From Coleofasciculus chthonoplastes F2-STO-03 (GTDB taxonomy: Bacteria; Cyanobacteriota; Cyanobacteriia; Cyanobacteriales; Coleofasciculaceae): a stretch of 64,000 nt of DNA. Position 1 is the stretch's first letter; the number at the start of each line of letters is the position of its first letter. The position numbers were made by a program, and so were the translations under genes. The stretch is taken from NCBI GenBank assembly GCA_040222015.1, contig JAVJWO010000085.1, positions 12,775-76,774 on the forward strand, read 5' to 3'. The notes beneath the pieces are model-generated. The model saw nothing but the letters and a program-made list of their open reading frames with translations, did no database searches and was not told the DNA's origin. Shown piece by piece: positions 8,991 through 62,834 of the stretch.

Positions 8991-11465
8991 ATGTTTGAAC
9001 GCTTTACAGAAAAAGCCATTAAGGTGATCATGCTAGCCCAGGAAGAGGCACGTCGCCTGGGGCACAACTTTGTCGGCACGGAGCAAATCCTTCTGGGTTT
9101 GATCGGGGAGGGAACTGGCGTCGCCGCCAAAGTTCTTAAGTCGATGGGTGTCAATCTTAAAGATGCCCGGATTGAAGTTGAGAAAATCATTGGTAGAGGT
9201 TCCGGCTTTGTCGCTGTGGAAATTCCCTTTACCCCTAGGGCAAAACGAGTCTTAGAATTATCACTCGAAGAAGCCCGCCAACTGGGTCATAACTATATCG
9301 GAACTGAGCATTTACTGCTGGGTTTGATCCGGGAAGGCGAAGGGGTGGCGGCACGAGTTTTGGAAAATTTGGGTGTAGACCTGACCAAGGTGAGAACTCA
9401 AGTCATCCGGATGCTGGGCGAGACGGCAGAAGTCACCAGTGGCGCATCTTCGGGTCGCACGAAAACACCAACCTTAGATGAATTTGGTAGCAATCTGACC
9501 CAAATGGCGGGTGAAGGTAAACTTGATCCGGTAGTGGGACGCGCTAAAGAAATTGAGCGCGTTATCCAAATTTTGGGGCGCCGCACCAAAAATAACCCTG
9601 TATTAATTGGGGAACCTGGGGTGGGAAAAACCGCGATCGCAGAAGGATTGGCGCAGCGAATTGCTAATAACGATATCCCAGATATCTTAGAAGAAAAGCG
9701 CGTCGTTACCCTGGACATCGGGCTACTGGTGGCGGGAACGAAGTATCGAGGTGAGTTTGAAGAACGCCTCAAGAAAATCATGGATGAGATCCGTCAAGCT
9801 GCCAATGTAATCTTGGTGATTGATGAGGTTCATACCCTGATTGGTGCAGGTGCGGCTGAAGGAGCTATTGATGCTGCAAATATCCTGAAACCCGCTTTAG
9901 CTAGGGGCGAACTCCAATGTATCGGGGCGACAACCCTGGATGAGTATCGTAAACATATTGAACGGGATGCGGCATTAGAACGGCGCTTCCAACCCGTGAT
10001 GGTAGGTGAACCCTCCGTTGAAGAGACGATTGAGATTTTATACGGGTTGCGCGAACGCTATGAACAGCATCACAAGCTGAAAATTTTAGATGAAGCCCTG
10101 GATGCAGCGGCAAAATTGTCGGATCGCTATATCTCGGATCGCTATTTACCCGATAAAGCGATTGACTTGATTGATGAAGCTGGTAGCCGGGTGCGTTTAA
10201 TAAACTCCCAACTTCCGCCAGCGGCGAAAGAGTTAGATAAGGAACTGCGACAAGTCCTTAAGGAAAAAGACGACGCCGTGCGATCGCAAGACTTTGACCG
10301 GGCGGGTGAACTGCGCGATCGGGAAATGGAAATTAAAGGCGAAATTCGCGCGATCGCTCAAAATAAAAAGGCGGAAACTGGAACCGATGATTCGCCGGTC
10401 GTCGATGAGGAAGATATTGCCCATATTGTCGCCTCTTGGACGGGAGTACCCGTTAGCAAGCTGACAGAATCCGAGTCCGAGAAGCTGCTGCACATGGAAG
10501 ATACACTGCATCAGCGCCTCATCGGTCAGGAAGATGCAGTGAAAGCGGTATCACGGGCGATTCGACGGGCAAGGGTAGGTTTAAAGAACCCCAACCGTCC
10601 CATCGCCAGTTTTGTCTTCTCTGGTCCTACCGGGGTGGGTAAAACTGAGTTAGCCAAATCCTTGGCGGCTTACTTCTTCGGGTCAGAAGAAGCGATGATT
10701 CGCTTGGATATGTCCGAGTACATGGAACGCCATACCGTCAGTAAATTGATTGGTTCGCCTCCAGGCTACGTCGGCTACAACGAAGGCGGTCAACTAACCG
10801 AAGCGGTACGTCGTCGTCCCTACACGGTGGTGCTATTCGACGAAATCGAAAAAGCCCATCCTGATGTCTTTAACATGCTGCTGCAAATCCTGGAAGACGG
10901 GCGTCTCACCGATGCTAAAGGGCGGACAGTAGACTTTAAGAACACCCTATTGATCATGACCTCTAATATTGGGTCTAAGGTGATTGAAAAAGGTGGCGGT
11001 GGTTTAGGCTTTGAGTTAAGTGACAATGAAGCCGAATCCCAGTACAACCGCATCCGTTCTTTGGTCAACGAGGAACTCAAGCAGTACTTCCGTCCCGAAT
11101 TCCTCAACCGTTTGGATGAGATTATTGTCTTCCGTCAGCTAAGCAAAGACGAGATCAAGGAAATCTGCGATATCCTACTGCGGGAAGTCTTCAAGCGTCT
11201 CACCGAAAAGGGAATTGCCTTGGAAGTCACCGATCGCTTCAAAGAACGGTTGGTGGAAGAAGGGTACAGTCCATCTTACGGCGCAAGACCCCTACGTCGG
11301 GCAATCATGCGCTTGTTAGAAGACGTATTAGCAGAAGAAATCCTTTCGACTCGCCTGCAAGAAGGAGACAGTGCGATCGTCGATGTGGATGAAGAGGGCA
11401 AAGTGAAAGTGATTCCCGGAGAACCTGGGGAACAACGGGAACTTTTACCTCAAGGTGCTGAATAA
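8991..11465 (+). CDS. clpC: ATP-dependent Clp protease ATP-binding subunit ClpC
   Basis: [26 protein letters not shown]-terminus; two Walker A motifs ([16 protein letters not shown]); UVR domain. Confidence 0.98.
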
Positions 11466-11491
11466 TCCACTCGATTGATAATTCCCTTATG

Positions 11492-11526
11492 GCGGTAGAG
11501 AAGGTTAGCCTTTTCTACCGTTTTTG
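11492..11526 (+). terminator. Rho-independent terminator of clpC
   Basis: GCGGTAGAGAAGG-TTAG-CCTTTTCTACCGT hairpin followed by a T run. Confidence 0.8.
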
Positions 11527-11571
11527 TCGCAGAGGGCAGAAGGCAGAAGGCAGAGGGCAGAAGGTTGAGTT

Positions 11572-11982
11572 ATGCGTATACTTGATGATTTAGAAACACC
11601 GTTCCAGATTAATATTGTGCCGATGATTGATGCAATATTCGCAATCTTGGCATTTTTTATCATTTCAACGCTTTATTTAACCCGATCTGAAGGACTACCT
11701 GTTAATTTACCGACAGCGATAACCGCAGAGAGTCAGGTACAAGACCGAATAATTACGGTCACGATTCAGGCAAATGGAGCCATTTTTATTAACCAAGAAC
11801 CGATTGAATTATCACAACTTGAAGTAGGGATAGAGTCATTAGTAACAGGAGATTCTCCATTCTTAGTGATTATTAATGCCGATGAAAATGTCCCTCATGG
11901 TCGAGTCGTTAGCGTTATGGATCGCTTACGGTTAGTCCAAGGAATTCGTTTAGCGATCGCGGCAGTAGAAGCAATGAGATAA
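11572..11982 (+). CDS. exbD: Biopolymer transporter ExbD/TolR family
   Basis: INIVPMIDAIFAILAFFII TM with conserved Asp; ADENVPHGRVVSVMD. Confidence 0.9.
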   Translation: MRILDDLETPFQINIVPMIDAIFAILAFFIISTLYLTRSEGLPVNLPTAITAESQVQDRIITVTIQANGAIFINQEPIELSQLEVGIESLVTGDSPFLVIINADENVPHGRVVSVMDRLRLVQGIRLAIAAVEAMR

Positions 11983-12648: not shown

Positions 12649-14370
12649 ATGCCATTAGATTATTTTGCACCAGGAGTCTACGTTGAAGAGGTAGACCGAG
12701 GCAGTCGCCCGATAGAGGGCATTAGTATGAGTGTCGCTGGGTTTATTGGGTTTACCGAGGATATACGCGGTGACGCCGAATTATTTAAACCCATGCTGAT
12801 TACCACTTGGGATCAGTACTTACAGTCCTTTGCCAAAGAAGGCTCCGATGGGTTTACGGACTTTGACGCCTATTTACCCTTTGCGGTTCAAGGGTGGTTT
12901 CTCAATGGTGGGGGTCGCTGTTGGGTGACCAGTATTGGTACAAAACTTCCCGGTTCTGAACCGCCGCCAATCGAGCAAACGGGGACTAAGATTCTCACAG
13001 CCGGAAATCGCCCCTCTTTACAATTCACGCTTAAACCGGCTGAATCTGAATCAGAAGAAGGGGGAGCCTTAGCGCTATCCGGTGCAGATGAACCTCGGCT
13101 GCGGATGGTGATTCAAGAAAGCACACCCAAACCCTTACCCGAAGACGCACCAGAGGATGCCGAACCTCCGTACAATACCGGTGAATTCTTTGACCTGATT
13201 GTGGCACGGGGCGACGAGGTATTGGAACGGTATGACCACCTGACGATGAATCCCGAAGTGGAAACTCAGGTAGCTGACTATGTAGTTACCGCCGTAGAAA
13301 GTTCTGAATTTATCCAGGCGGTTGACATTTCCCAAAGCGGACAACCCCTGTCACGGCGACCTATGCAGGGAGCGTATGAGATTACACCGCCCCCCTATAT
13401 TTCTGACCCGGAACACTTTGCCCGGGATTTACAAGGACAACGGGATGACCGCACGGGGACACAGGGGATTTTTGAAATTGATGAAGTCGCCATGATTGCT
13501 TGTCCTGACTTGATGAAGGTGTATCAAGAGGGATTGATGAACTTGGAGCAAGTTCACGGTGTCATGGAAATGATGCTGAGTATGTGCGAGAATTCCTTCC
13601 CCGGTCCAGCCTACCGGATGGCGGTTCTTGATGCACCTCCGGTCAAGCCGACGAAAGGAGATACCCCGGTTTCGGCGGAACAACAGAAGCCGCAAGATGT
13701 CGCGGCTTGGTTAAAACTGTTTAACCGCCGTTCCATGTTTGGCGCTCTTTATTATCCTTGGATTAAAGTAGCGAATCCTCGCAATGGTGGGCGTCCCATG
13801 TATGTCCCCCCCTGTGGTCACATGATGGGGATTTGGTGTCGCACCGATGAGACACGCGGCGTGTTCAAAGCACCCGCTAACGAAACACCGCGCGGTGTGA
13901 CGGGTTTAGCCTATGACACCAATATGCGGGAACAGGAACTGTTAAACCCGATGGGAATTAACTGTATCCGTAACTTCGCCAATTACAACCGAGGTTACAA
14001 GGTTTGGGGTGCTCGCACCTTGGTAGAACCGGATAACGTGCAATGGCGTTATATCAGTGTCCGCCGCTTACTCAGCTACATTGAGAAATCCATTGAAATT
14101 GGTACACAGTGGGTGGTGTTCGAGCCAAATGACCAAATTCTCTGGGCGCGTGTACGCCGTACAGTCAACAATTTCCTAGAACGGCTGTGGCGTGAGGGAG
14201 CATTGTTTGGAACTTCCCCTTCAGAATCGTTCTATGTCAAGTGTGATGGGGAAATCAATACCCATGAGACAATTATGCTCGGTCGTCTCTATGTAGAAGT
14301 CGGTGTTTGTCCAGTCCGTCCGGCTGAATTTGTGATCTTCCGGATTAGTCAGTGGGCACCGAATCAATAG
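12649..14370 (+). CDS. Contractile injection system (eCIS/tCIS) tail sheath protein
   Basis: YFAPGVYVEE N-terminus; ALYYPWI, GVFKAPANE, VWGARTL, WRYISVRR, WVVFEPND, RPAEFVIFRI. Confidence 0.95.
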   Translation: MPLDYFAPGVYVEEVDRGSRPIEGISMSVAGFIGFTEDIRGDAELFKPMLITTWDQYLQSFAKEGSDGFTDFDAYLPFAVQGWFLNGGGRCWVTSIGTKLPGSEPPPIEQTGTKILTAGNRPSLQFTLKPAESESEEGGALALSGADEPRLRMVIQESTPKPLPEDAPEDAEPPYNTGEFFDLIVARGDEVLERYDHLTMNPEVETQVADYVVTAVESSEFIQAVDISQSGQPLSRRPMQGAYEITPPPYISDPEHFARDLQGQRDDRTGTQGIFEIDEVAMIACPDLMKVYQEGLMNLEQVHGVMEMMLSMCENSFPGPAYRMAVLDAPPVKPTKGDTPVSAEQQKPQDVAAWLKLFNRRSMFGALYYPWIKVANPRNGGRPMYVPPCGHMMGIWCRTDETRGVFKAPANETPRGVTGLAYDTNMREQELLNPMGINCIRNFANYNRGYKVWGARTLVEPDNVQWRYISVRRLLSYIEKSIEIGTQWVVFEPNDQILWARVRRTVNNFLERLWREGALFGTSPSESFYVKCDGEINTHETIMLGRLYVEVGVCPVRPAEFVIFRISQWAPNQ

Positions 14371-14819
14371 GTGATACCACAAACCTCCTACCTAAGTAAT
14401 CGCTTTAGGTAGGGGTTAAAACGCCATTTAGGGGCGACCCACTGGCATTAATGGACAACTCTAGAAACAGGGCGGGTTTAGTCACATCGAGGTGCAACCG
14501 AAAAGATAGTAGTAAAACCCGCCCCTACATCGGGTCGCCTTGAATTTAGGCAAAGTAAATAATTGTAACGAAAAAGGATTGAGAAACATCAAATCAAAAG
14601 GGAAGGAAACTCGAATTTCATCGAACGTTTAACAGCACCTCACAGACCTTGACATTTTGTAATCGTTATGAGCAAAAAATTATGCTATAACAGAAGTCTC
14701 TAACTGTTAAACTGTCTGATTATGGTCTGATGGTTTGGTCAATGTGTTAACTTATGTATCGCCAACACATCGAAACAAGTCAAGGTTAACTATTAACTTG
14801 AGAATAAGGAGATAAAGAT

Positions 14820-15308
14820 ATGGCTGCCGAACTAAAAGGTCTTGCCCCTAGTAGTTTTTCCTGTGATATTGATGGTTTGGGTGAAGTTTCATTTCAAAGT
14901 GTGAAAGTTCCTGAGTACAAGCCGAAACTAGCGGGTGAATCCGCCGTGGTGGGTTCAATGAAAGGTGGGAAATCCGAGCGGCAGATTAACTCGGCGGGCT
15001 TTGAGGAAGTGGTCACTTTTGATTTAGTCTGCCTTTCTAGTCCAAGTCCAACCAGTTCTAGTGTAATCATGTGGAAATGGTTCAAAGCTTGCCTCCCTCC
15101 CTCCGATGGCGGTGAAGGAAAATGGGCTGATAACAAAAAAACAGGAAGTATCTTTGCCTACAGTCATGATGATGCAATTATCGCCCAATGGGACTTCCAA
15201 GAAGCGTGGCCCTCGAAAATGAGCCTTTCCGAATTGGATGTCAATGGCAAAGATTATCTCAAAGAAACCTGGACAATAGTGTGCGAAAATTGCACCCGCG
15301 TGATGTAG
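14820..15308 (+). CDS. CIS tail tube protein (gp19-like), divergent paralogue 1
   Basis: WKWF...KKTGSI..Y......AQWDFQEAWPSK...SELD pattern; SD AAGGAG upstream. Confidence 0.82.
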   Translation: MAAELKGLAPSSFSCDIDGLGEVSFQSVKVPEYKPKLAGESAVVGSMKGGKSERQINSAGFEEVVTFDLVCLSSPSPTSSSVIMWKWFKACLPPSDGGEGKWADNKKTGSIFAYSHDDAIIAQWDFQEAWPSKMSLSELDVNGKDYLKETWTIVCENCTRVM

Positions 15309-15368
15309 GACATTTGAGGGATTTGATCATCAGCTATTTAATGAACTGAATTATCTGGGAGTTGAACC

Positions 15369-15857
15369 ATGGGAGATATTGAATATAACACAAACTCTGC
15401 TTTCTTTTTTGATTGTGATGGAATGGAGATAGTCGTCGAAAAATGTACGATTCCTGCGATTGAAATGAAAGTGGCAGCAGGAAGCGGAGCCATCGGCTGC
15501 GGCAGAGATGGGAAAACCCAAACCCAAGCTACCCCGGGTGCAGTCGAGTATGGTTCTGCTCTTAAACTCGAATATGTGGCAGGTAACGAGGGAGATCAAC
15601 AGAAAATAACCGATTGGTATAAGAAATGCCACGCCTCCTCGTTCTCCGGTGGTGCTACAGAGTCGAGGAAAAACCGAAAAACAGCATCACTGTTTATTTA
15701 CGATATGAATGGTAATATTGGAGCGCAGTACGATTTCATCGATTGCTTCCCCAGCAATCTGACCCAAACCAGTCAATTCGATGTTAGTAAGCCGGGAGAA
15801 CTGGCGAAAGATACGATGGAGATTCGGTTCACGAAAATGGTACGGGCAGACGTGTGA
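15369..15857 (+). CDS. CIS tail tube protein (gp19-like), divergent paralogue 2
   Basis: DWY...RKTASLFIYD.NG...AQYDF..CFPS pattern; SD GGAG. Confidence 0.8.
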   Translation: MGDIEYNTNSAFFFDCDGMEIVVEKCTIPAIEMKVAAGSGAIGCGRDGKTQTQATPGAVEYGSALKLEYVAGNEGDQQKITDWYKKCHASSFSGGATESRKNRKTASLFIYDMNGNIGAQYDFIDCFPSNLTQTSQFDVSKPGELAKDTMEIRFTKMVRADV

Positions 15858-15899
15858 TGTGAGTATTGCCTCAATTCGTAATCTAGTTTGTTTAATAAG

Positions 15900-15932
15900 C
15901 TGCCTGGGTGTTTGTTTAAAAAACACCGGGCA
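15900..15932 (+). promoter_or_regulatory. Intergenic stem-loop after tube paralogue 2
   Basis: CTGCCTGGGTGTTT...AAACACCGGGCAG inverted repeat. Confidence 0.55.
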
Positions 15933-15979
15933 GTGTTTTGTCCATTGCCGGATAACATGAAAGGCAAAGGAGGTGAACA

Positions 15980-16474
15980 ATGGCAGAAGTTGAAATTCTG
16001 ACGCGATCGCGCTTTTATTTAGAGTTAATCTTAGATGGAAGTAACGATGCTGTCGATGGTTTGTTTCAGGAATGTGCGGGCTTTAAAGCAACCCAGGATG
16101 TTGTTGAAGTCTGCGAGGTAACGCCGCAGAAGTGGGGTAAAAGCGGGAATTCTAGAGGTCGAATGGTTCGGACTAAGGTTCCGGGTAATATCACCTACAC
16201 CAATCTCACCTTGAAACGAGGTTTAAATATTTCCATGACCTTGTGGAATTGGCTGAATTCTGTACAGGAAGGAGCAAATTGGGAAGATCAACGGCGTAAT
16301 GGTGCATTAGTTCTCTATGATACGGCATCTAAGGAGCAGTTTCGATTTGAATTTAAAGGCGCGTGGCCCATTAGCTATAAAATTTCTGATTTGACTGTTA
16401 CAGGAGATGAGTATCAAGTAGAAGAAGTCGAGGTGACAGTTGAACAATTAACACGGATTAAGCCAGGGACATGA
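15980..16474 (+). CDS. CIS tail tube / tube initiator (Afp5/Pvc5-like gp19)
   Basis: FQECAG, KVPG.ITYTNLTLKRG, RRNGALVLYD, F.GAWP; SD GGAGG. Confidence 0.9.
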   Translation: MAEVEILTRSRFYLELILDGSNDAVDGLFQECAGFKATQDVVEVCEVTPQKWGKSGNSRGRMVRTKVPGNITYTNLTLKRGLNISMTLWNWLNSVQEGANWEDQRRNGALVLYDTASKEQFRFEFKGAWPISYKISDLTVTGDEYQVEEVEVTVEQLTRIKPGT

Positions 16475-16830
16475 TTCAAACCGAGTTTGAATTTGAGCTT
16501 CCCAAAGGATATCTGGATGGGGAAGGAAACTTACACCGCAAAGGGGTAATGCGGTTAGCGCGGGCAATTGATGAAATCGTTCCCATGCGTGATCCTCGCG
16601 TGAAATCTAATCCCGCGTATGCCACGGTGATTATTTTATCAAGAGTCATTTTACGTTTGGGGGCTTTAGATGAAGTCACTCCTACAATAATTGAAAATTT
16701 GTTTACCTGTGATCTCAATTATTTGCAACAATTTTATCGGCAAATTAACGAATTAGAATCTGAAAACCAAGTCGAACAGAGTTCTAGTTTTTCGGCACAA
16801 TCTGGATCAATCACATCTGATTCTGAATGA
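16471..16830 (+). CDS. CIS tail assembly chaperone, copy 1
   Basis: TEFEFELPKGYLD.EG.LHRKGVMRLA.A.DEI.P..DPRV..NPAY..VIILSRVI..LG motif. Confidence 0.88.
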   Translation: MIQTEFEFELPKGYLDGEGNLHRKGVMRLARAIDEIVPMRDPRVKSNPAYATVIILSRVILRLGALDEVTPTIIENLFTCDLNYLQQFYRQINELESENQVEQSSSFSAQSGSITSDSE

Positions 16831-16994
16831 TATAAAATTCATTTTTTTGTCAACAATAAATCTCAAAAATAAGGTTTGATACAAGTGGTTAAGTAAAGGG
16901 CGACCCGATCCAATTAAATGGATAAACTTGTTGATTGATGCAGCGGGTCGCCCCTACAGGAGAACGAAGGACAAAGGACAAATGACCAATAACT

Positions 16995-17312
16995 ATGGAC
17001 TATACATATTTTGAATTTACTCTACCCAAAGGTTTCGTGGATACCAATTGTGGTATTCATCACCATGGGATAATGCGTCGAGTCACCGGGAAAGATGAGA
17101 TTGTAGTTCACAAAGATAGCCATGTGCAGCAAGAACCTTACTACCGCATTTTTGTTATTTTGTCTAGAGTTATCACCCGTATTGGCAACCTTTCTCCGGT
17201 TACACCGAAACTATTAGAACAACTTTTTTTAGTAGACTTGATTTACTTACAAAACTTTTTCAATCATATCAATCAGCATCAGGGAGGAATGGCGCGATCG
17301 GGGGAATATTAG
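16995..17312 (+). CDS. CIS tail assembly chaperone, copy 2 (gpG-like, ends in the frameshift cassette)
   Basis: FEFTLPKGFVD...H..G.MR..T.KDEI...VILSRVITRIG; paralogue of 16471-16830. Confidence 0.85.
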   Translation: MDYTYFEFTLPKGFVDTNCGIHHHGIMRRVTGKDEIVVHKDSHVQQEPYYRIFVILSRVITRIGNLSPVTPKLLEQLFLVDLIYLQNFFNHINQHQGGMARSGEY

Positions 17313-17455
17313 GCTACCCCTTGGATCGTTTATACCAAGAGGTAGCCTTAATTGCTTTTTACTTTCACTGGTCATTAGACGATATCCTAAACCTAGAACA
17401 TGAAGAACGGCTGCGCTGGGTTATAGAAATCCGCCGATTCACGAATGACAAATGA
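17306..17455 (+). CDS. DUF6760-like ORF (gpT-like), probably reached by -1 frameshift
   Basis: The -1 frame reads ILGYPLDRLYQEVALIAFYFHWSLDDILNLEHEERLRWVIEIRRFTNDK*; no ATG/GTG in frame after the stop at 17165; absent from the ORF track. Confidence 0.8.
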   Translation: MLGYPLDRLYQEVALIAFYFHWSLDDILNLEHEERLRWVIEIRRFTNDK

Positions 17456-17493
17456 CAAATGACGAATGACGAATGACAAATGACAAATGACAA

Positions 17494-17775
17494 ATGACGA
17501 AATTTGCCTTCCCCTTGTCAGAAACCGCTGTTCAGGTAAAAATAGGGTCACAGTTGATCGAGTGTATCCCTGAGTTAGACCAAGCTCAAGTGCTTGTAGA
17601 TACGGAACCACCAGCCGATTATTTTGATGATCTGCCTTCATTCAATCCCCTATTTGCTCAAGGTGTTAGCACTCGCCCCTGTCCCTGTGGATCAGGTCAA
17701 TTGTTTCAAGCGTGTCATGGCAGCTTAACTATCAACTGTCAATCGTCAACCGTGGAAACCTCTGAGTCATCGTAA
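17494..17775 (+). CDS. Small SEC-C motif protein
   Basis: CPCGSGQLFQACHG SEC-C zinc motif; stop overlaps next start (TAATG); own start uncertain because it lies inside an STRR. Confidence 0.6.
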   Translation: MTKFAFPLSETAVQVKIGSQLIECIPELDQAQVLVDTEPPADYFDDLPSFNPLFAQGVSTRPCPCGSGQLFQACHGSLTINCQSSTVETSESS

Positions 17776-19109
17776 TGAGTAATTCTCTAGCCATTGCTAC
17801 CGTAACCGCCACTCTCCAACGAATTGTACAGACGTCGATTCAGGACGATATTAGTGGGGCAATGGTGACCACACTACGACCCAATGAAGTGGGAACAGCA
17901 ACTCCCCAAGTGGGCGTGAATGTCTTTCTTTACCAGGTTCAGATTAACCATGCTTGGCGTCAACAGGCTGAAATACAAGCCCGCAGTCGGGGAAACCCAG
18001 GTGCCAAGCGATCGCAAACTGCCCTAGACTTACATTACATGATCAGTTTCTACGGGAATGATAACGACTTACAACCGCAACGGTTGATGGGTAGTGTGAT
18101 GGGTGGTCTCAACGACTGGCGTACCCTGAAAAAAGAGAGAATTGAGCAAACCCTCCACGATTCTACCTATCACTATTTATTAGAGTCTGACCTACCGGAT
18201 CAGATCCAAGAAATCTCCCTGTGGCCCCTCGATTTGTCCTTAGAAGATTTATCTAAAGCCTGGTCAGCTTTTTTTCAAACCACTTACTTATTATCGGTGG
18301 CTTATCGGGCTAGGGTAATTATGCTCGAAGGGCAAGATACAGGCAAGAGACCTCTGCCAGTACGGGCTCGTTCTTTAGAGGGAATTGTTCCCTTTACTAA
18401 TCAGCCGAAAATTGATCGGATCATTTCTGAAGCTGGGCGATTGGAACCCATCTTAGCCGATAGTACGGTGTTAATTCAAGGGAACCATTTACAAAGTGAT
18501 ATCACCCAAGTTTGGATTGGGGAAATGGAAGTCACCCCCAGTGAAATCACCGACACCCAAATTGTATTACCCCTTTCCTCTATACCCACTGAATCATTAC
18601 AGGCGGGGATGCATAGTCTCCAGGTGGTGCATCGTCTGGCAAAAGTGATGCCACCCACATCAGGTAATGGTAATGGCGTCAGTGGGAATGGGGGTCAGAT
18701 GCAAACGGTTAATCAGCCTCAAACTTTTGTTTCTAGTATTCAGTCGAATGTATCTCCTTTGGTGATTCGTCCCACAATTACAAAAACTACGGTGTCTAAA
18801 AAAGAGGTTGATGATGAAGATTTGCGGTCTGCGGAAATACGGGTACGATCCAATTTAACCGTAGGTAAAAAGCAGCGCGTTTTGTTAGCCCTGAATGAAA
18901 TTGATACGAATCAACCGGCGGCTTATTTGTTTGAAGCGTCTCCTCGCCAGACGGATGTGATTTGGGTGTCTTTCCCGGTTGAACGGATGAAAGGAGGACG
19001 CTATTTAGTTCGCTTGTTGGTTGATGGTGCAGAAAGTCCGCTGATTGTGGATACTGAACCCGATAGTCCCACGTTTAATCAGTATGTGGGTCCGAGAATC
19101 TCGATTTAA
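17775..19109 (+). CDS. Pvc16/Afp16-like DUF4255 cap (tail terminator) protein with C-terminal Ig/IPT-like domains
   Basis: MSNSLAIATVTATL, VNVFLYQV, ALDLHYMISFYG, LSVAY; C-terminal G.YLVRL.VDGAES. Confidence 0.88.
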   Translation: MSNSLAIATVTATLQRIVQTSIQDDISGAMVTTLRPNEVGTATPQVGVNVFLYQVQINHAWRQQAEIQARSRGNPGAKRSQTALDLHYMISFYGNDNDLQPQRLMGSVMGGLNDWRTLKKERIEQTLHDSTYHYLLESDLPDQIQEISLWPLDLSLEDLSKAWSAFFQTTYLLSVAYRARVIMLEGQDTGKRPLPVRARSLEGIVPFTNQPKIDRIISEAGRLEPILADSTVLIQGNHLQSDITQVWIGEMEVTPSEITDTQIVLPLSSIPTESLQAGMHSLQVVHRLAKVMPPTSGNGNGVSGNGGQMQTVNQPQTFVSSIQSNVSPLVIRPTITKTTVSKKEVDDEDLRSAEIRVRSNLTVGKKQRVLLALNEIDTNQPAAYLFEASPRQTDVIWVSFPVERMKGGRYLVRLLVDGAESPLIVDTEPDSPTFNQYVGPRISI

Positions 19110-20673: not shown

Positions 20674-20832
20674 CAGGGGGAGATGGGGGAGATGGGGGAG
20701 ATGAGGGAGATGAGGGAGATGAGGGAGATGAGGGAGGTAAAGAAACGATCGTCGTTAAACCTGCTTCTATACTCCTCTCAAAACCATGTCCTCGAACGAA
20801 GTGAAGGAGAAGTCAAGGATCAACAATATTCT

Positions 20833-36248: not shown

Positions 36249-36494
36249 GGGAGCTGGGGGAGCAGAGGGAGCTGGGGAAGCTGGGGAAGCAGAGGGAGAT
36301 GGGGGAGATGGGGGAGATGGGGGAGATGGGGGAGATGGGGGAGATGGGGAAGAATTGTAGAGACTTCTCCGGTGGAACATCTTTTGTAGGGGCGGGTTTT
36401 ACCACTAACGTTTCGTTTTGACCCTGATATAACTAAACCCGCCCCGACCTCACCGTTCAATTATCACAAATGACGAATGACAAAGGACAAATGA

Positions 36495-39625: not shown

Positions 39626-39929
39626 TCATTGGTCATTGGTCATTGGTCATTGGTCATTCGTCATTGGTCATTGGTCATTGGTCATTAGTCATTGGTCATT
39701 TGTCATTGGTCATTAGTCATTGGTCATTTGTCATTCGTCAGGGAACAGGGAACAGGGAACAGGTAAGCGTTTTGAGTTAACTCCCCCTGCTCCCCCTGCT
39801 CCCTCTGCTCCCCCTGCTCCCTCTGCTCCCCCTGCTCCCCCTGCTCCCCCTGCTTCCCCTGCTCCCCCTGCTTCCCCATCTCCCCCTGCTCCCCCTGCTT
39901 CCCCATCTCCCCGAAACCCAACACCCCGA

Positions 39930-53059: not shown

Positions 53060-54568
53060 AAACCTCGCGGAATTCCCCACCCGTCTAAACGGTGGGGATG
53101 GATAGGGAACATTCAAAAAAATGTTGCTTGACTGTCCTTTTCTGGGTATAATTTCAGATGATAAAAACCAGAAAAGGACGAGGTAAAAATTGGCAGTGAG
53201 ACGGTGTAAATTTAGATTGTATCCAAACAAGCAGCAATTGACAAAGTTATTTGCTGCCCGTCGTCTTCATGCCTACTTATACAACGCCTGCGTTGCCCAC
53301 CGTCGTTATGAATGGAAGGCAAATAAACACAGTATAACCTATTTTGAGCAACAGAATTGTTTGCCAGAATTCAAGAAATTCTGGGAGGAATATGCTCGGC
53401 TTAATTCTCTAAGTTTGCAGGCAACAGTAAAACGGGTTGACCTAGCCTATAAAGGCTTTTTCCATGGGTTAAGAAAGCCGCCGAAATTCAAGTCAATTTG
53501 TAAATATTCCGGCTGGACTTATCCATCTTCACCCAAGAAATCAGGATGGAGAGTGGAAGGTAAAGGGGAACATGGGCGGCTGACTCTCAAAGACCTGGGG
53601 ATCACCTTGCGGATGAGGGGAAAAGTCAAGCAGTGGGGAGAACCGACAACGCTCACCATTGTCCATAAGCCAGGAGTGAATCAGTGGTTTGCCTCAATTA
53701 CGGTTGAGCTAGAAGACGCGCCACCGAAGTTCGGATCGCAATCTGATTTGAGCTATGAGTCGGTGGTAGCCTTCGACTTGGGAACCGAGACGGCAATCAC
53801 CACCTATAACGGGCAAGAATTTGAGGAGATAACCAACCCTCGGTTCACCCAAGTCCTGGAACCCAAGATTAAGAAAGCATCCAAGGAGCTAAGAAGGAAA
53901 CGCGCTCCCAACCGGAAGAAACGAATCAAGGCATCGAATCGGTGGAAGAAGCATCGCCGGAAAGTATCAAAGCTGCAACGGAAAGCCGGAAATCAACGGA
54001 AAGACTGGCAGCATAAAATCACGTCAGATCTAGCAAGTCGTTATGACATCGGCGTGAGCGAGAAGTTGAATACGAAGGCGATGACACAAAAGGCGAAAAA
54101 AGGGGGTAAAGGGAAGAAACAAAAAGCCGGACTAAACAAATCCATTTTGTCAGTAGGGTTTGGCAATCTGAACAAGTTGCTGACCTATAAGATAGAAGGG
54201 AAGGGGGGCTTAATGTTAATCCTAGATACCCGAAAACTGAAGCCATCACAGCGCTGTCCTCAATGCCACACAGTCCATAAAGAGTGGGCAGAGTTATCAA
54301 ACCGATACCATGTTTGTGACAAGTGTGGATTTGAGATTGAGCGGGATAGAGGCAGCGTATTGCTAATGTATAACGTTGCGACGAATAAGCAACCGGAGTT
54401 AGGAACTAGCTCCGTCAGTCTTGGATGCTCTGGCTCTACTTCATCACCCAAAGTTCCATTGAATTGCGGAGGGATGAAGCAACTGGGGCAGATGAAGAGA
54501 CGAAGATCCCAAGCTAAGGAGAAAGGGGAATTGAAACCGCAATTTCCTAAGAGTTGGGGTTAGTTCAT
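53060..54568 (+). mobile_element. IS200/IS605-family element carrying only tnpB
   Basis: Left-end hairpin TCCCCACC/GGTGGGGA 53074-53098; right end GGTTAGTTCAT at 54568; no tnpA. Confidence 0.75.
53190..54563 (+). CDS. tnpB: RNA-guided endonuclease TnpB
   Basis: KFRLYPN HTH; RuvC residues D (FDLG), E (SEKL), D (ERD); CPQC/CDKC zinc finger. Confidence 0.9.
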   Translation: MAVRRCKFRLYPNKQQLTKLFAARRLHAYLYNACVAHRRYEWKANKHSITYFEQQNCLPEFKKFWEEYARLNSLSLQATVKRVDLAYKGFFHGLRKPPKFKSICKYSGWTYPSSPKKSGWRVEGKGEHGRLTLKDLGITLRMRGKVKQWGEPTTLTIVHKPGVNQWFASITVELEDAPPKFGSQSDLSYESVVAFDLGTETAITTYNGQEFEEITNPRFTQVLEPKIKKASKELRRKRAPNRKKRIKASNRWKKHRRKVSKLQRKAGNQRKDWQHKITSDLASRYDIGVSEKLNTKAMTQKAKKGGKGKKQKAGLNKSILSVGFGNLNKLLTYKIEGKGGLMLILDTRKLKPSQRCPQCHTVHKEWAELSNRYHVCDKCGFEIERDRGSVLLMYNVATNKQPELGTSSVSLGCSGSTSSPKVPLNCGGMKQLGQMKRRRSQAKEKGELKPQFPKSWG

Positions 54569-55129: not shown

Positions 55130-56284
55130 TTGAAACGACCTATTCACGGGGGAAATCTAGCCTGGGCAGCGGCGCAGGTAGGTTGTTCCCCTTCCCTGAT
55201 TCTGGATTTTTCGGCGAGTATCAATCCTTTGGGACCGCCAAAATGTGCGATCGCGGCGATTGAGTCTCATCTGGATGACTTGGTTGCTTACCCTGCACCG
55301 GATTACTACCCGTTACGAGTAGCTCTGAGTCAACTCCATCCTACGCTGAACCCTGACTGGATTCTACCGGGGAATGGCTCGGCTGAGTTGTTAACCTGGG
55401 CAGCTAGGGAACTCTCAGAACTTGAGGAAACGATTATTTTGACTCCAGCCTTTAGCGACTACCAACGGGCGCTGAGGGCGTTTAATGCCAGAATCAGGGG
55501 GTGTTTTTTATTTGGGGGAGATGGGGGAGATGGGGAAGATGGGGGAGTTGTCTCAACATTCAGTCAGGGCGGGTTTTGCCCAAAGGTTATGATCAATAGC
55601 CACAACAAAATCCCTAAACCCGCCCCTACATTAGGGCTTGTCTCTGGCAAACGTCAGGGTTTGCTGCTGAATAATCCCCATAATCCGACGGGTCAATTAT
55701 GGGATACAGCTAGCCTGCTGCCTTTTTTGCAGCAATTTGCTTTGGTGGTTGTGGATGAAGCCTTTATGGACTTTTTGCCACCGGATCAGCAGCAAAGCTT
55801 GATTCGGTGGGTGCAGGATTATCCGAATCTGGTCATTTTGCGATCGCTGACTAAATTTTACAGCCTCCCTGGACTCCGTTTAGGTTACGCTATCGCTCAT
55901 CCTGAACGGCTACAACGCTGGCAACAGTGGCGTGATCCTTGGTCTGTAAACGTCCTGGCTGTGGCGGCTGCTATTGCTGTGGTGCAGGATCAGGCATTTC
56001 AATACCAAACTTGGGACTGGCTTCCCGCCGCGCGATCGCATCTGTTTCAAGGGTTATCATCGTTACCAGGGTTACATCCCTATCCCAGCGCGGCTAACTT
56101 TTTGCTGGTACACTCAGAACACTCCTGTTCCCAACTACAGGAACACCTACTCAAGCACCATTGTATTTTAATTCGGGATTGCTTGAGTTTTCCGGAATTA
56201 GGCGATCGCTATTTTCGAGTCGCTATTCGGACTCAAGCAGATAATCAATGTTTATTAGATGCTTTGAAAGATGTTATAAGTTAG
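55130..56284 (+). CDS. cobD: Threonine-phosphate decarboxylase CobD
   Basis: HGGN, DFSASINPLG, NPHNPTG, DEAFMDF, RSLTKFYSLPGLRLGY. Confidence 0.92.
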   Translation: MKRPIHGGNLAWAAAQVGCSPSLILDFSASINPLGPPKCAIAAIESHLDDLVAYPAPDYYPLRVALSQLHPTLNPDWILPGNGSAELLTWAARELSELEETIILTPAFSDYQRALRAFNARIRGCFLFGGDGGDGEDGGVVSTFSQGGFCPKVMINSHNKIPKPAPTLGLVSGKRQGLLLNNPHNPTGQLWDTASLLPFLQQFALVVVDEAFMDFLPPDQQQSLIRWVQDYPNLVILRSLTKFYSLPGLRLGYAIAHPERLQRWQQWRDPWSVNVLAVAAAIAVVQDQAFQYQTWDWLPAARSHLFQGLSSLPGLHPYPSAANFLLVHSEHSCSQLQEHLLKHHCILIRDCLSFPELGDRYFRVAIRTQADNQCLLDALKDVIS

Positions 56285-61067: not shown

Positions 61068-61838
61068 ATGCTTGCAACCTTCAATTCTCTCAACCCTTGG
61101 CTTATTGCTGTCCTCTTAAATACAGTATTATTAGCGATCGCCTGGGTGATCCCCAAGCAACTCCTCACCCGCGCTGGAGTTCTCCACGCTTGGGCGTTGG
61201 GAATTGTGATTTTGGGGACGTTGGGCTGGCAAGGGTATCTGATTGTTATGGTTTATTTCCTGGTCGGTTCAGCCGTTACCCGTATCGGTATGGCACAAAA
61301 AGAAGCGGCGGGGATCGCGGAAAAGCGTTCAGGCGCTAGAGGACCCGAAAATGTCTGGGGTTCCGCCCTAACCGGTACGCTTTGTGCGGTGGGTGTTCTT
61401 TTCCTGGATGAACCCGATCGCAGTTTTCTCCTACTGGGGTTCGTCGCCAGTTTTGCCACTAAGCTTTCTGATACTACCGCCAGTGAGGTGGGTAAAGCTT
61501 ACGGTAAGCGCACGTTTTTAATCACCACCTTACAACCTGTATCCCCCGGAACCGAAGGTGCAGTTAGCTTAGAAGGAACTCTGGCGGGGGCTGTCGCCTC
61601 GGCTGCGATCGCGGTTCTGGGTTGGGGCGTTGGTTTTATAGACTTGACAGGTGTCTATTTTTGTGTATTAGCTGCCTTTATTGCCACTAACCTAGAAAGT
61701 GTGATTGGTGCCACTTGGCAATCTCAGGTCGAATGGATGACCAACGAAGTCGTGAATTTTATCAATACGTTAATTGGTGCGATCGCAGCTATCCTGTTTG
61801 TCGTCATCTGGCACAGTATCATGGGATTAGCCGGATAG
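61068..61838 (+). CDS. DUF92/TIGR00297 membrane protein (VTE6-like)
   Basis: RGPENVWGS, SDTTASEVGKAYG, GTEGAVSLEGT. Confidence 0.9.
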   Translation: MLATFNSLNPWLIAVLLNTVLLAIAWVIPKQLLTRAGVLHAWALGIVILGTLGWQGYLIVMVYFLVGSAVTRIGMAQKEAAGIAEKRSGARGPENVWGSALTGTLCAVGVLFLDEPDRSFLLLGFVASFATKLSDTTASEVGKAYGKRTFLITTLQPVSPGTEGAVSLEGTLAGAVASAAIAVLGWGVGFIDLTGVYFCVLAAFIATNLESVIGATWQSQVEWMTNEVVNFINTLIGAIAAILFVVIWHSIMGLAG

Positions 61839-61922
61839 TTTATAGCCAGACATAACCTTAAATAAAAGTCCTCAGTCAAACAACTAAGGACAAATCAATG
61901 ACCAATAACCAATGACAAATAA

Positions 61923-62834
<912 letters not shown>

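What the first reader, a model, noticed from the sequence alone, without database searches (positions are those of the whole stretch)
16995..17455. Complete -1 programmed ribosomal frameshift cassette in a CIS tail-assembly chaperone (G/GT pair; DUF6760-like ORF as the 'T' moiety)
Seen in the sequence: (a) Chaperone 2 ends TCG GGG GAA TAT TAG, placing the heptamer G GGG GAA at 17300-17306. (b) An internal SD-like AGGGAGG lies at 17281-17287, 12 nt upstream. (c) A stem-loop starts 4 nt downstream: AGGCTACC 17311-17318 pairs with GGTAGCCT 17341-17348, and CTTGG 17320-17324 pairs with CCAAG 17335-17339. (d) The -1 frame is open to TGA 17455 and reads GYPLDRLYQEVALIAFYFHWSLDDILNLEHEERLRWVIEI. It has no ATG/GTG, and its only TTG (17321) lies after the conserved YP and inside the stem. 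Established: long-tailed phages make gpG/gpGT chaperones by -1 frameshifting (lambda; as I recall GGGGGAA is used by mycobacteriophage L5-like phages), and an upstream SD plus 3' hairpin stimulate bacterial -1 shifts (dnaX, IS911). Inference: this CIS makes a 105-aa G and a ~150-aa GT chaperone, and the small DUF6760-type ORFs in CIS loci may be mis-annotated frameshift extensions. I am not aware of this being described for cyanobacterial CIS.
Basis: partly seen in the sequence, partly recalled or inferred. Interest (0 to 1): 0.88.

Follow-up and report, generated by a model that had tools for sequence, protein, structure and literature searches.

The report
Frameshifted tail chaperone in injection system
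A small chaperone gene in a bacterial phage-tail-like injection machine is read in two ways by a programmed ribosome slip, as in phages, which gives a job to a protein family of unknown function.

Summary
A 105-aa tail-assembly-chaperone-like ORF (16995-17312) carries an in-frame G GGG GAA (17300-17306). An SD-like AGGGAGG lies 12 nt upstream, and a hairpin of -20.4 kcal/mol (z -5.2) starts 4 nt downstream. The -1 frame stays open to 17455, has no start codon before the conserved Tyr-Pro, and matches Pfam DUF6760.

Comparison makes a programmed -1 frameshift the clear best reading. Of 130 DUF6760 copies in 113 cyanobacterial genomes, 126 sit in the -1 phase of the chaperone ORF with a slip-prone heptamer at a fixed position. 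Three are natural in-frame fusions and one is a fragment. The position of the 0-frame stop varies.

The hairpin arms are held at the nucleotide level. The codon before Tyr encodes G, S, C or R but is NGC in 120 of 121 junctions, and Val is GTA in 113 against 21% background.

The arrangement recurs in Streptomyces, Myxococcota, Chloroflexota, an archaeon, viral contigs and Bacillus phage BCD7, with heptamers GGGGGAR, TTTTTTC, GGGAAAG and CCCGGGG.

DUF6760 is homologous to the E' extension of phage P2 gpE+E'. This is a known mechanism in a context where my searches found no description of it. No protein product was observed.

The parts
16995..17312 (+). 0-frame ORF: tail assembly chaperone, 105 aa (the 'G'/gpE-like product)
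   Evidence: ORF. It matches phrog_508 'tail assembly chaperone' at E 1.5e-4. The AlphaFold model has pLDDT 87.2. The best solved folds are YqbN 3KLU (Z 7.1) and the HK97 tail assembly chaperone 2OB9 (Z 6.2), with the next unrelated chain at Z 3.2. 17 of 70 relatives weakly match PF10109 Phage_TAC_7.
17281..17287 (+). SD-like AGGGAGG, 12 nt upstream of the heptamer (possible stimulator)
   Evidence: Read. A GGAG/GAGG/AGGA core lies 5-20 nt upstream of the heptamer in 84 of 121 distinct junctions, against 11% of other 15-nt windows in the same ORFs. Spacing peaks at 10-11 nt. The signal is confounded by conserved Glu codons.
17300..17306 (+). slippery heptamer G GGG GAA, in frame
   Evidence: Read. 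GGGGGAR sits exactly 15 nt before the Tyr codon in 122 of 130 cyanobacterial copies and in 67 of the 80 best loci from other phyla; GGGGGGA/GGGGGGG at the same place in 4 more makes 71.
17310..17312 (+). 0-frame stop TAG
   Evidence: Read. In relatives the stop position varies (-8, -5, +7 or +28 nt from the Tyr codon) while the heptamer stays fixed.
17311..17348 (+). 3' stimulatory hairpin (8 bp, a 1x1 internal loop, 5 bp, 10-nt loop), starting 4 nt after the heptamer
   Evidence: Minimum free energy -20.4 kcal/mol, z -5.17. RNAalifold recovers the core stem. Pair counts and covariation are, synonymous-site fixation. z < -2 in 112 of 121 cyanobacterial junctions and 68 of 71 junctions from other phyla.
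17303..17455 (+). -1 frame extension, DUF6760 / P2 E'-like (the 'T' moiety), 50 codons plus TGA
   Evidence: PF20546 at E 2.4e-10 and PF06528 at E 3.3e-3. hhalign of the A2 alignment against P2 E' gives 93.3%. There is no start codon before the TTG at 17321.
16471..16830 (+). paralogous chaperone ORF, 119 aa, with no frameshift extension
   Evidence: phrog_508 at E 4.2e-6. Its start overlaps the stop of the tube gene.
12649..16474 (+). context: sheath gene (12649-14370) and three gp19-type tube genes (14820-15308, 15369-15857, 15980-16474)
   Evidence: Pfam hits. The best solved relative of the sheath is the Streptomyces CIS chain 8BKY, E 1e-106.
17494..19109 (+). context: 93-aa SEC-C-motif ORF (17494-17775) and a Pvc16_N (Afp16-type cap) protein (17775-19109)
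   Evidence: Pfam hits.

Best explanation
The locus encodes a phage-type tail assembly chaperone pair made from one start codon by a programmed -1 ribosomal frameshift.

Most ribosomes translate 16995-17312 and stop at TAG, giving a 105-aa chaperone, the counterpart of lambda G and P2 gpE. A fraction slip back one base on G GGG GAA (17300-17306). The hairpin at 17311-17348 probably pauses them there, and the SD-like AGGGAGG 12 nt upstream may help. These ribosomes continue in the -1 frame to 17455 and make a 153-aa fusion whose C-terminal 50 residues are the DUF6760 domain, the counterpart of lambda GT and P2 gpE+E'.

Shown here: the sequence elements, their conservation, nucleotide-level selection on the hairpin, natural in-frame fusions, and homology of both halves to phage chaperones.

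Inferred by analogy with lambda (recalled, not tested): the shared chaperone part coats a tape-measure-like protein, the DUF6760 part recruits tube subunits, and neither stays in the finished particle.

Not resolved: whether both tRNAs slip (tRNA-Glu re-pairing GAA to GGA through a G:U pair) or only the P-site tRNA-Gly slips on G GGG. Some relatives keep just G GGG followed by a stop, which favours a large role for the Gly slip.
For: (1) Phase and heptamer. There are 130 DUF6760 matches in 113 of 301 genomes of the same order. Of these, 126 lie in the -1 frame of an upstream chaperone-like ORF with a slip-prone heptamer. GGGGGAG (86) and GGGGGAA (36) sit exactly 15 nt before the Tyr codon, one GGGGGAA sits at -18, one copy has GGGGGGA and two have GGAAAAG.

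(2) The 0-frame stop moves (-8: 50 copies, -5: 37, +7: 22, +28: 19) while the heptamer does not.

(3) 95 of 125 copies have no ATG/GTG/TTG in the open -1 frame before Tyr.

(4) Natural in-frame fusions exist: L094, L095 and L102 and L152 in a Streptomyces. L102 has lost the hairpin (-6.6 kcal/mol, z -0.2).

(5) The hairpin. 83.2% of cells are paired against 79.9 +/- 0.5 in shuffles (0 of 500 reach it). Cells changed on both sides number 88 against 37 (0 of 500). Pair 28-63 is GC 52, AU 19, CG 9; pair 33-58 is CG 112, UA 4; pair 37-54 is UA 45, UG 37, CG 31.

(6) Codon choice in 121 junctions. The codon before Tyr is NGC in 120 although it encodes G 60, S 26, C 20 or R 14. Val is GTA in 113 (background 21%). 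Tyr is TAC in 113 (34%). Glu is GAG in 120 (36%).

(7) Other phyla. 71 of the 80 best loci have GGGGG[AG][AG] at -15 in the -1 phase. Seven more are in the -1 phase with TTTTTTT, GGGGGAA at -18, G GGG + stop, or CCCGGGG + stop. The Actinobacteria keep a hairpin in another register, GTACGC/GCGTAC, with z < -2 in 24 of 25.

(8) 16 of 16 IMG/VR loci are in the -1 phase, with GGGGGAR/GGGGGGN (8), TTTTTTC/T (6) or GGGAAAG (2). In L145 a PhageMin_Tail tape measure gene follows directly.

(9) Phage BCD7 has CTG GGG GAG TAA followed by a DUF6760-like -1 frame that its record does not annotate.

(10) Homology. PF06528 lies on P2 E'. hhalign of DUF6760 against E' gives 93.3%, E 2.7e-7. 42 of 70 DUF6760 members hit PF06528 below threshold. 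The chaperone fold is supported.

(11) GGGGGAA is an established chaperone slip site in actinophages (PMC10885494, passages).
Against: No protein evidence: no junction peptide, no ribosome profiling and no reporter assay.

G GGG GAA is not a canonical X XXY YYZ site, because the A-site re-pairing needs a G:U pair in the middle position.

Both hairpin arms and the SD-like motif lie in codons for conserved residues ([GSCR]-Y-P, E-V-A, E-V-E). Part of their conservation is therefore protein-level, and two of the five whole-structure covariation measures did not exceed shuffles.

Eight of 125 cyanobacterial copies carry an ATG 6-9 nt before Tyr, and one Nitrospiraceae locus (L218) has its own ATG in an ATGA overlap. 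Independent initiation is therefore possible in some lineages.

No tape measure gene follows the pair in this window, and profile comparison of the upstream ORF with P2 gpE itself found nothing.

The genomes compared are related to one another, so the counts overstate the number of independent observations.
Confidence: 0.88

Rival explanations
1. DUF6760 is a separate small protein. It would be started at the TTG at 17321 or at a non-canonical codon, perhaps by ribosomes that re-initiate after stopping at TAG 17310-17312.
For: Gene callers annotate it that way: the ESM Atlas holds the ORF from the TTG read as Met. One locus (L218) has a true ATGA start/stop overlap. Eight of 125 cyanobacterial copies have an ATG 6-9 nt before Tyr.
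Against: The TTG lies after the invariant Tyr-Pro and inside the hairpin, and no SD sits at a usable distance (AGGGAGG ends 33 nt upstream). 95 of 125 relatives have no ATG/GTG/TTG at all before Tyr. The 0-frame stop moves by up to 36 nt and in 41 copies lies downstream of the Tyr codon, so re-initiation could not deliver the conserved N-terminal residues. In-frame fusions exist. The heptamer would have no reason to be fixed.
Confidence: 0.05
2. The shift happens in the RNA, not on the ribosome: RNA polymerase stutters on the G5 run and adds a base, so a fraction of mRNAs encode the fusion in one frame.
For: The conserved core is a homopolymer run (GGGGG, TTTTTT). Contigs drop rare variants, so cannot exclude a minority of edited transcripts.
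Against: Contigs from RNA libraries are colinear with the genome across the site. X1 record 2 covers 17291-17443 with 0 differences, and X4 record 29 covers 16964-17442 with 0 gaps. Five G is short for polymerase slippage (recalled knowledge). Relatives use GGAAAAG, GGGAAAG and CCCGGGG, which are ribosomal slip sites and not long homopolymers. A selected 3' RNA hairpin at 4-7 nt is the hallmark of ribosomal -1 shifts.
Confidence: 0.04
3. The gene is broken. Either a once-fused chaperone-DUF6760 gene has a frameshift mutation, or the assembly has an error in the G run.
For: In-frame fused versions exist in a few genomes. One copy (L085) carries an internal stop and one (the second copy in L108) is a fragment.
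Against: The same phase and heptamer recur in 126 of 130 cyanobacterial copies. They recur across phyla, in viral contigs and in a phage. Purifying selection acts on the downstream frame: it has 9 invariant residues. RNA-library contigs agree with the assembly.
Confidence: 0.01

Closest known systems
Phage P2 gpE / gpE+E' (tail assembly chaperones of a contractile-tailed phage, -1 shift at TTTTTTG)
   Same: The gene order is sheath, tube, chaperone. A short upstream ORF is extended by about 50 residues through a -1 shift a few codons before its stop. The extension is homologous: PF06528 lies on E' and hhalign against DUF6760 gives 93.3%. Some relatives of the window's pair use TTTTTTC/T. The P2 product sizes of 91 and 142 aa and its slip site are from passages of PMC3091744.
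   Different: The slip site here is G GGG GAA. A strongly selected hairpin follows, whereas the same paper reports none in P2 or its relatives. No tape measure gene follows in this window. The upstream ORF shows no profile-level match to gpE itself. The host element is a chromosomal injection-system module, not a phage.
Lambda gpG / gpGT and the conserved tail-chaperone frameshift of long-tailed phages (Xu, Hendrix and Duda 2004; recalled, not in the library searched)
   Same: Two products share one start, and the longer one is made by a -1 shift in an overlap. Slip sites differ between lineages while the phase is kept. Two viral-contig relatives use lambda's own heptamer GGGAAAG. The model of the upstream ORF resembles the HK97 tail assembly chaperone 2OB9 (Z 6.2).
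   Different: No sequence similarity to lambda G or T was tested. The roles in tape-measure and tube binding are assumed by analogy.
Actinobacteriophage tail assembly chaperone frameshifts with GGGGGAA (SEA-PHAGES set analysed in PMC10885494)
   Same: The heptamer is identical, and so is the proposed G:U re-pairing of tRNA-Glu on GGA (passages).
   Different: Those are siphophage genes next to a tape measure. Homology of their products to DUF6760 was not tested.
E. coli dnaX / IS911-type three-element -1 frameshift signals (recalled)
   Same: An upstream SD-like element at 10-14 nt, a heptamer, and a 3' hairpin a few nt downstream. All three are present here.
   Different: The heptamer differs. 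The contribution of the SD-like element is unproven because it overlaps conserved codons.
Cis6/Afp6/Alg6 spike plug, the small protein of injection-system clusters (PMC8894136, PMC8894135; passages)
   Same: It is a protein of about 50-60 residues encoded in the same kind of cluster and long left unexplained.
   Different: phmmer of the DUF6760 frame against all PDB chains found no injection-system chain. The plug is encoded next to the spike genes, not after the tube gene. The DUF6760 frame lacks a start codon.

Membership tests
Phage tail assembly chaperone frameshift pair (lambda G/GT, P2 E/E+E') | Two overlapping ORFs, the second in the -1 frame of the first and without its own start codon | tested here: met
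   Window. Relatives: 126 of 130 copies are in the -1 phase, and 95 of 125 have no start codon.
Phage tail assembly chaperone frameshift pair (lambda G/GT, P2 E/E+E') | An in-frame slip-prone heptamer in the overlap, conserved in position across relatives | tested here: met
   G GGG GAA at 17300-17306. The position is fixed at -15 nt from the Tyr codon in 122 of 130 copies and in 71 of 80 loci from other phyla. Other canonical heptamers occur in divergent relatives.
Phage tail assembly chaperone frameshift pair (lambda G/GT, P2 E/E+E') | The pair lies downstream of the tube (major tail) gene | tested here: met
   Sheath, three tube genes, then the chaperones. The same order holds in 5 of 5 loci checked from other phyla.
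Phage tail assembly chaperone frameshift pair (lambda G/GT, P2 E/E+E') | The pair lies directly upstream of the tape measure gene (usual synteny; I treat it as typical, not defining) | tested here: not met
   In the window the next genes are a 93-aa SEC-C-motif ORF and a Pvc16_N cap protein. No tape measure was recognised there or in the baseplate module on contig C173. The synteny is met in relative L145, where PhageMin_Tail follows.
Phage tail assembly chaperone frameshift pair (lambda G/GT, P2 E/E+E') | The upstream ORF belongs to a tail assembly chaperone family or fold | tested here: met
   phrog_508 at E 1.5e-4. VIA-align gives 3KLU Z 7.1 and HK97 chaperone 2OB9 Z 6.2, against Z 3.2 for the next unrelated chain. 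BFVD hits include the BCD7 protein (TM 0.72) and Mu FS-gp41. This is weaker than a curated Pfam hit: the window ORF itself matched no Pfam family, and only 17 of 70 relatives touch PF10109.
Phage tail assembly chaperone frameshift pair (lambda G/GT, P2 E/E+E') | The extension is homologous to a known frameshift extension (P2 E', PF06528) | tested here: met
   hhalign 93.3%, E 2.7e-7 over 41 columns. PF06528 matches at E 3.3e-3 in the window and in 42 of 70 relatives, all below the curated cut-off.
Phage tail assembly chaperone frameshift pair (lambda G/GT, P2 E/E+E') | Both products are made, the long one as a minor fraction, and both are needed for tail assembly | not testable with these tools
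   This needs proteomics, reporter assays and genetics.
Pfam DUF6760 (PF20546) | Score above the curated gathering cut-off | tested here: met
   40.7 bits against a cut-off of 27, profile positions 8-46 of 89. All 70 relatives scanned also match.
Cis6/Afp6/Alg6 spike plug | Sequence similarity to the plug chains of solved injection-system structures | tested here: inconclusive
   phmmer against all PDB chains returned only an insignificant carbonic anhydrase match. No fold comparison of the DUF6760 part was made.
dnaX-type three-element -1 frameshift signal | A 3' stem-loop a few nt after the heptamer, under selection as RNA | tested here: met
dnaX-type three-element -1 frameshift signal | An upstream SD-like element at about 10-14 nt that acts on the shifting ribosome | tested here: inconclusive
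   It is present in the window (12 nt) and in 84 of 121 relatives against an 11% background. It overlaps conserved Glu codons, and its function is untested.

The most novel reading that the evidence does not exclude
The chaperone/DUF6760 -1 frameshift is a core, so far overlooked feature of a large branch of contractile injection systems in bacteria and archaea. That branch includes the experimentally tractable cytoplasmic systems of Streptomyces.

If true, these machines are built by a phage-like pathway that depends on chaperones and a tape measure, and an unrecognised tape-measure protein sits among their 'unknown' genes. The conserved hairpin would set the ratio of short to long chaperone. 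Lineages that fused the two frames, and that also carry a second stand-alone chaperone paralogue, would show how that ratio control can be replaced.
Probability: 0.5. Interest if true: 0.7.

Novelty: new member of a known kind. Interest (0 to 1): 0.6.

Why it matters
Programmed -1 frameshifting in tail assembly chaperones is textbook for phages. In the injection-system papers I searched it is not mentioned, and the genes concerned are listed as unknown.

Term searches within four structural or functional papers found the word 'frameshift' nowhere. These were PMC8894136, PMC8894135, PMC10066040 and PMC10020575. PMC10066040 states that the Streptomyces clusters lack a typical tape measure (passage). 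'DUF6760' occurs in 0 papers of the library.

The result has four consequences:
- It gives DUF6760 a function: the E'/T-like frameshift extension of a tail chaperone.
- It shows that annotation pipelines miss the fusion product. They also miss it in a sequenced phage, BCD7.
- It predicts a hidden tape-measure partner in these systems.
- It offers an unusually clean natural dataset for studying the G GGG GAR slip site and its hairpin: over a hundred junctions, with covariation, different stem registers in different phyla, and natural fused controls.

For engineering injection systems as delivery tools, leaving out the frameshift product could explain failures of assembly or length control.

Tried and rejected
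1. Complex prediction of the adjacent tube protein (alignment A5) with the DUF6760 part (A2) gave no verdict: score 0.00, and the controls were not run. It says nothing either way.

2. hhalign of the upstream-ORF alignment A3 against P2 gpE found nothing (probability 0.1%). The link of the upstream ORF to chaperones rests on PHROG, weak PF10109 hits and fold.

3. phmmer of both ORFs against PDB sequences found nothing useful. The Pvc16-like protein also had no solved relative.

4. Foldseek against PDB gave no hit at E <= 0.001. The two best rows were chaperones but weak. VIA-align was needed.

5. tblastn against 50,697 phage records. One search used wrong coordinates (only the chaperone part plus upstream junk) and found nothing. 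The corrected one search found only phage BCD7.

6. Metatranscriptome contigs cover the junction without indels. They cannot show expression level, strand or rare slipped transcripts. Most depth at 17441-17500 comes from a 7-nt repeat shared with other organisms.

7. The idea that DUF6760 is the Cis6/Afp6 spike plug was considered and dropped: position, phase, and no PDB match.

8. Earlier findings of this scan: nothing near the locus.

9. Promoter and terminator scans around the locus did not exceed shuffles.
Full report
**1. The observation**

The sequence of 16800-17700 shows every element at the stated coordinates.
- The ORF 16995-17312 (105 aa) ends TCG GGG GAA TAT TAG. G GGG GAA therefore lies in frame at 17300-17306 and the stop at 17310-17312.
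- AGGGAGG is at 17281-17287.
- AGGCTACC/GGTAGCCT (17311-18 / 17341-48) and CTTGG/CCAAG (17320-24 / 17335-39) are complementary.

ViennaRNA returns exactly this two-part stem as the minimum-energy and centroid structure of 17307-17352. The energy is -20.4 kcal/mol, against -7.98 +/- 2.4 for 200 dinucleotide shuffles (z -5.17), and none of the shuffles is as stable.

The -1 frame is open from 17168 to the TGA at 17453-17455. Its first ATG/GTG/TTG is the TTG at 17321. The heptamer alone is common: GGGGGAR occurs 43 times in the window. The case therefore rests on the hairpin and on comparison with other genomes.

**2. What the two frames encode**

The -1 frame matches Pfam DUF6760 (E 2.4e-10, above the cut-off) and, weakly, PF06528 'Phage P2 GpE'. 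The 105-aa ORF and the 119-aa ORF before it (16471-16830) both match PHROG 508, 'tail assembly chaperone'.

The neighbours are a sheath gene, three gp19-type tube genes, a 93-aa SEC-C-motif ORF and a Pvc16_N (Afp16-type cap) gene. The rest of the window holds housekeeping genes.

The baseplate module lies on another contig, C173: tube initiator, VgrG-like spike, PAAR-like DUF4280, gp25, Baseplate_J and Tail_P2_I. A second cluster with its own sheath and gp25 genes on contig C23 has no DUF6760, and the genome holds a single DUF6760 copy.

The closest solved relative of the sheath is 8BKY (E 1e-106). The Anabaena thylakoid-anchored system matches only at the C-terminus. PMC10066040 names 8BKY as its Streptomyces model (passage).

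**3. Conservation in cyanobacteria**

PF20546 was found in 113 of 301 genomes sampled from the same order. I fetched all 130 matches and analysed them with scripts.
- 126 lie in the -1 frame of an upstream chaperone-like ORF with a slip-prone heptamer. GGGGGAG (86) and GGGGGAA (36) sit exactly 15 nt before the Tyr codon. One GGGGGAA sits at -18 (L006), one copy has GGGGGGA (L007) and two have GGAAAAG (L070, L072).
- One of the 126 (L085) has an internal stop and is probably decaying.
- Three are natural in-frame chaperone-DUF6760 fusions (L094, L095, L102).
- One is a truncated fragment (the second copy in L108).

The 0-frame stop lies at -8 (50 copies), -5 (37), +7 (22) or +28 (19) nt from the Tyr codon, while the heptamer never moves. 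95 of 125 copies have no ATG/GTG/TTG anywhere in the open -1 frame before Tyr. 14 have one between the heptamer and Tyr, and 8 of those are ATG.

**4. The hairpin is selected as RNA**

On 121 distinct 78-nt junctions (alignment A1), RNAalifold recovers the core stem.

Cells changed on both sides number 88 against 37 (0 of 500). Sliding the partner by 1-3 columns drops pairing to 35-57%. Covarying pairs are 28-63 (GC 52, AU 19, CG 9), 33-58 (CG 112, UA 4, UG 4) and 37-54 (UA 45, UG 37, CG 31). Two measures, the number of pairs with a double change and the number of further pair types, did not exceed the shuffles.

The arms encode conserved residues, so I compared codon choice with the background of the same genes.
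- The codon before Tyr encodes Gly (60), Ser (26), Cys (20) or Arg (14), yet it is NGC in 120 of 121.
- Val is GTA in 113 (background 21%).
- Tyr is TAC in 113 (background 34%).
- Glu is GAG in 120 (background 36%).
That is nucleotide-level constraint.

With mononucleotide shuffles, 112 of 121 junctions fold with z < -2. The fused L102, which no longer needs a shift, has lost the stem (-6.6 kcal/mol, z -0.2). L094 and L095 still have it.

An SD-like core lies 5-20 nt upstream in 84 of 121 junctions, against 11% of control windows. Spacing peaks at 10-11 nt. It overlaps conserved Glu codons, so its role stays open.

**5. Beyond cyanobacteria**

*Viral contigs.* A scan of IMG/VR gave 16 loci. 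All 16 are in the -1 phase. Eight have GGGGGAR/GGGGGGN, six GC-rich ones have TTTTTTC or TTTTTTT, and two AT-rich ones have GGGAAAG. In L145 the pair is followed at once by a PhageMin_Tail tape measure gene. L141 is a full injection-system cluster.

*Genomes of other phyla.* A scan of one genome per species found at least 586 relatives, and the best 80 were kept. They come from Streptomyces, Kitasatospora, Myxococcota, Acidobacteriota, Chloroflexota, Gammaproteobacteria, Nitrospiraceae, Planctomycetota and a Methanoregula archaeon.
- 71 have GGGGG[AG][AG] at -15 in the -1 phase.
- Seven more are in the -1 phase with TTTTTTT, GGGGGAA at -18, G GGG + stop (2) or CCCGGGG + stop (3).
- One Streptomyces (L152) is an in-frame fusion.
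- One Nitrospiraceae locus (L218) has its own ATG in an ATGA overlap.

Five of five loci checked have the order sheath, tube, chaperone, DUF6760. Hairpins are kept: 44 of 46 non-actinobacterial loci and 24 of 25 actinobacterial loci have z < -2. The Actinobacteria use a different register, GTACGC/GCGTAC.

*Deposited phages.* Among 50,697 phage records only Bacillus phage BCD7 matched. There CTG GGG GAG TAA ends a 257-aa 'hypothetical protein', and the DUF6760-like -1 frame is not annotated.

**6. Relation to known chaperones**

In P2 (AF063097) gpE matches PF10109 and the E' extension carries PF06528. The DUF6760 alignment A2 aligns to P2 E' with hhalign probability 93.3% (E 2.7e-7). 42 of 70 DUF6760 members hit PF06528 below threshold.

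The upstream-ORF alignment A3 shows nothing against gpE itself, but 17 of 70 members touch PF10109.

An AlphaFold model of the 105-aa ORF (pLDDT 87.2) is closest to YqbN 3KLU (Z 7.1) and the HK97 tail assembly chaperone 2OB9 (Z 6.2). The next unrelated chain scores Z 3.2. Among viral models it is closest to T4-like 'baseplate hub assembly' proteins (E 5e-5) and the BCD7 protein (TM 0.72). Weaker rows include Mu FS-gp41 and a 'tape measure chaperone'.

GGGGGAA is the sole 'five-two' slip motif in about a thousand SEA-PHAGES chaperone frameshifts, and G:U re-pairing of tRNA-Glu has been proposed for it (PMC10885494, passages). P2 shifts at TTTTTTG and has no hairpin (PMC3091744, passages).

**7. 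Mechanism**

The best reading is a ribosomal -1 shift on G GGG GAA that yields 105-aa and 153-aa products, as set out under Best explanation. Relatives that keep only G GGG followed by a stop suggest that the tRNA-Gly slip is the constant element.

Functions of the two products are inferred from lambda G/GT (recalled). A test of tube binding by complex prediction gave no verdict.

Contigs from RNA libraries are colinear across the site. This gives no support to transcript-level slippage but cannot exclude a rare form of it.

**8. Novelty**

Eight literature searches and term look-ups in nine papers found no mention of a frameshifted chaperone in injection systems. 'DUF6760' occurs in no paper of the library.

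The library lacks most subscription journals, so a description elsewhere cannot be ruled out. The mechanism itself is well known from phages. This is a new member of a known kind, in a context where it has been overlooked.

Noticed in passing
window 17444-17503 and 16967-16986: A 7-nt tandem repeat (AATGACA x 8.4) spans the stop of the DUF6760 frame and the ATG of the next ORF (17494). A second repeat (AAGGACA x 2.9) lies just before the chaperone's ATG. RNA-library contigs of relatives carry one extra GACAAAT unit at 16976, and metatranscriptome depth piles up on the repeat. A change in repeat number could alter the C-terminus of the fusion or the start of the next gene.
   Followed up: partly
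window 16471-16830: A second chaperone paralogue (119 aa, phrog_508 at E 4e-6) lies directly before the frameshifted one and has no -1 extension. At least one in-frame-fusion locus (L102) shows the C-terminal end of such an ORF just upstream. A separate 'G' gene might make the frameshift dispensable.
   Followed up: partly
L094, L095, L102 (cyanobacteria); L152 (Streptomyces sp.): These are natural in-frame chaperone-DUF6760 fusions. L102 has lost the hairpin and the GTA/TAC codon bias. L094 and L095 still have both, so they look recent.
   Followed up: yes
L218 (Nitrospiraceae MAG): Here DUF6760 has its own ATG in an ATGA overlap with the chaperone stop, and there is no slip site. This is an alternative solution by translational coupling.
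   Followed up: partly
L150 (Bacillus phage BCD7, JN712910.1 around 61379-62338): The deposited record does not annotate a -1 extension. The sequence has CTG GGG GAG TAA followed by a DUF6760-like frame. It lies between a 257-aa hypothetical protein and a 1,736-aa hypothetical protein in the tape-measure position.
   Followed up: yes
L145, L149; model m9d22c7385b7e: Chaperone ORFs of divergent relatives hit PF12322 'T4 baseplate protein'. The window's chaperone model is closest to T4-like 'baseplate hub assembly' proteins among viral models. An Atlas cluster near DUF6760 carries Gp51_C in 13% of its members. T4 gp51 may be a fused relative of this chaperone pair.
   Followed up: no
alignment A3 (relatives of 16995-17312): Most relatives end with a CxxC...CxxC zinc-ribbon-like motif just before the slip site, and 16 of 70 hit Zn_ribbon_4. 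The window's 105-aa ORF and its genus-level relatives lack it.
   Followed up: no
G000 contigs C85, C173, C23: The injection system of the window is split. Sheath, tube, chaperone and cap genes are here, and the baseplate and spike genes are on C173. A second cluster with its own sheath and gp25 genes on C23 has no DUF6760.
   Followed up: partly
window 20676-20700, 36301-36343, 39781-39895, 55514-55547: GGGGGAG recurs at 9-nt spacing in several arrays, which explains the excess of the heptamer in the window.
   Followed up: no
window 8991-11982: A ClpC/ClpB-type double AAA+ ATPase (824 aa, with Clp_N and UVR motifs) and an ExbD homologue lie just upstream of the sheath gene. Whether they have anything to do with the injection system is unknown.
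   Followed up: no
window 53190-54563: An IS605 OrfB / TnpB-like ORF (OrfB_IS605 plus the Cas12f1-like TNB domain).
   Followed up: no
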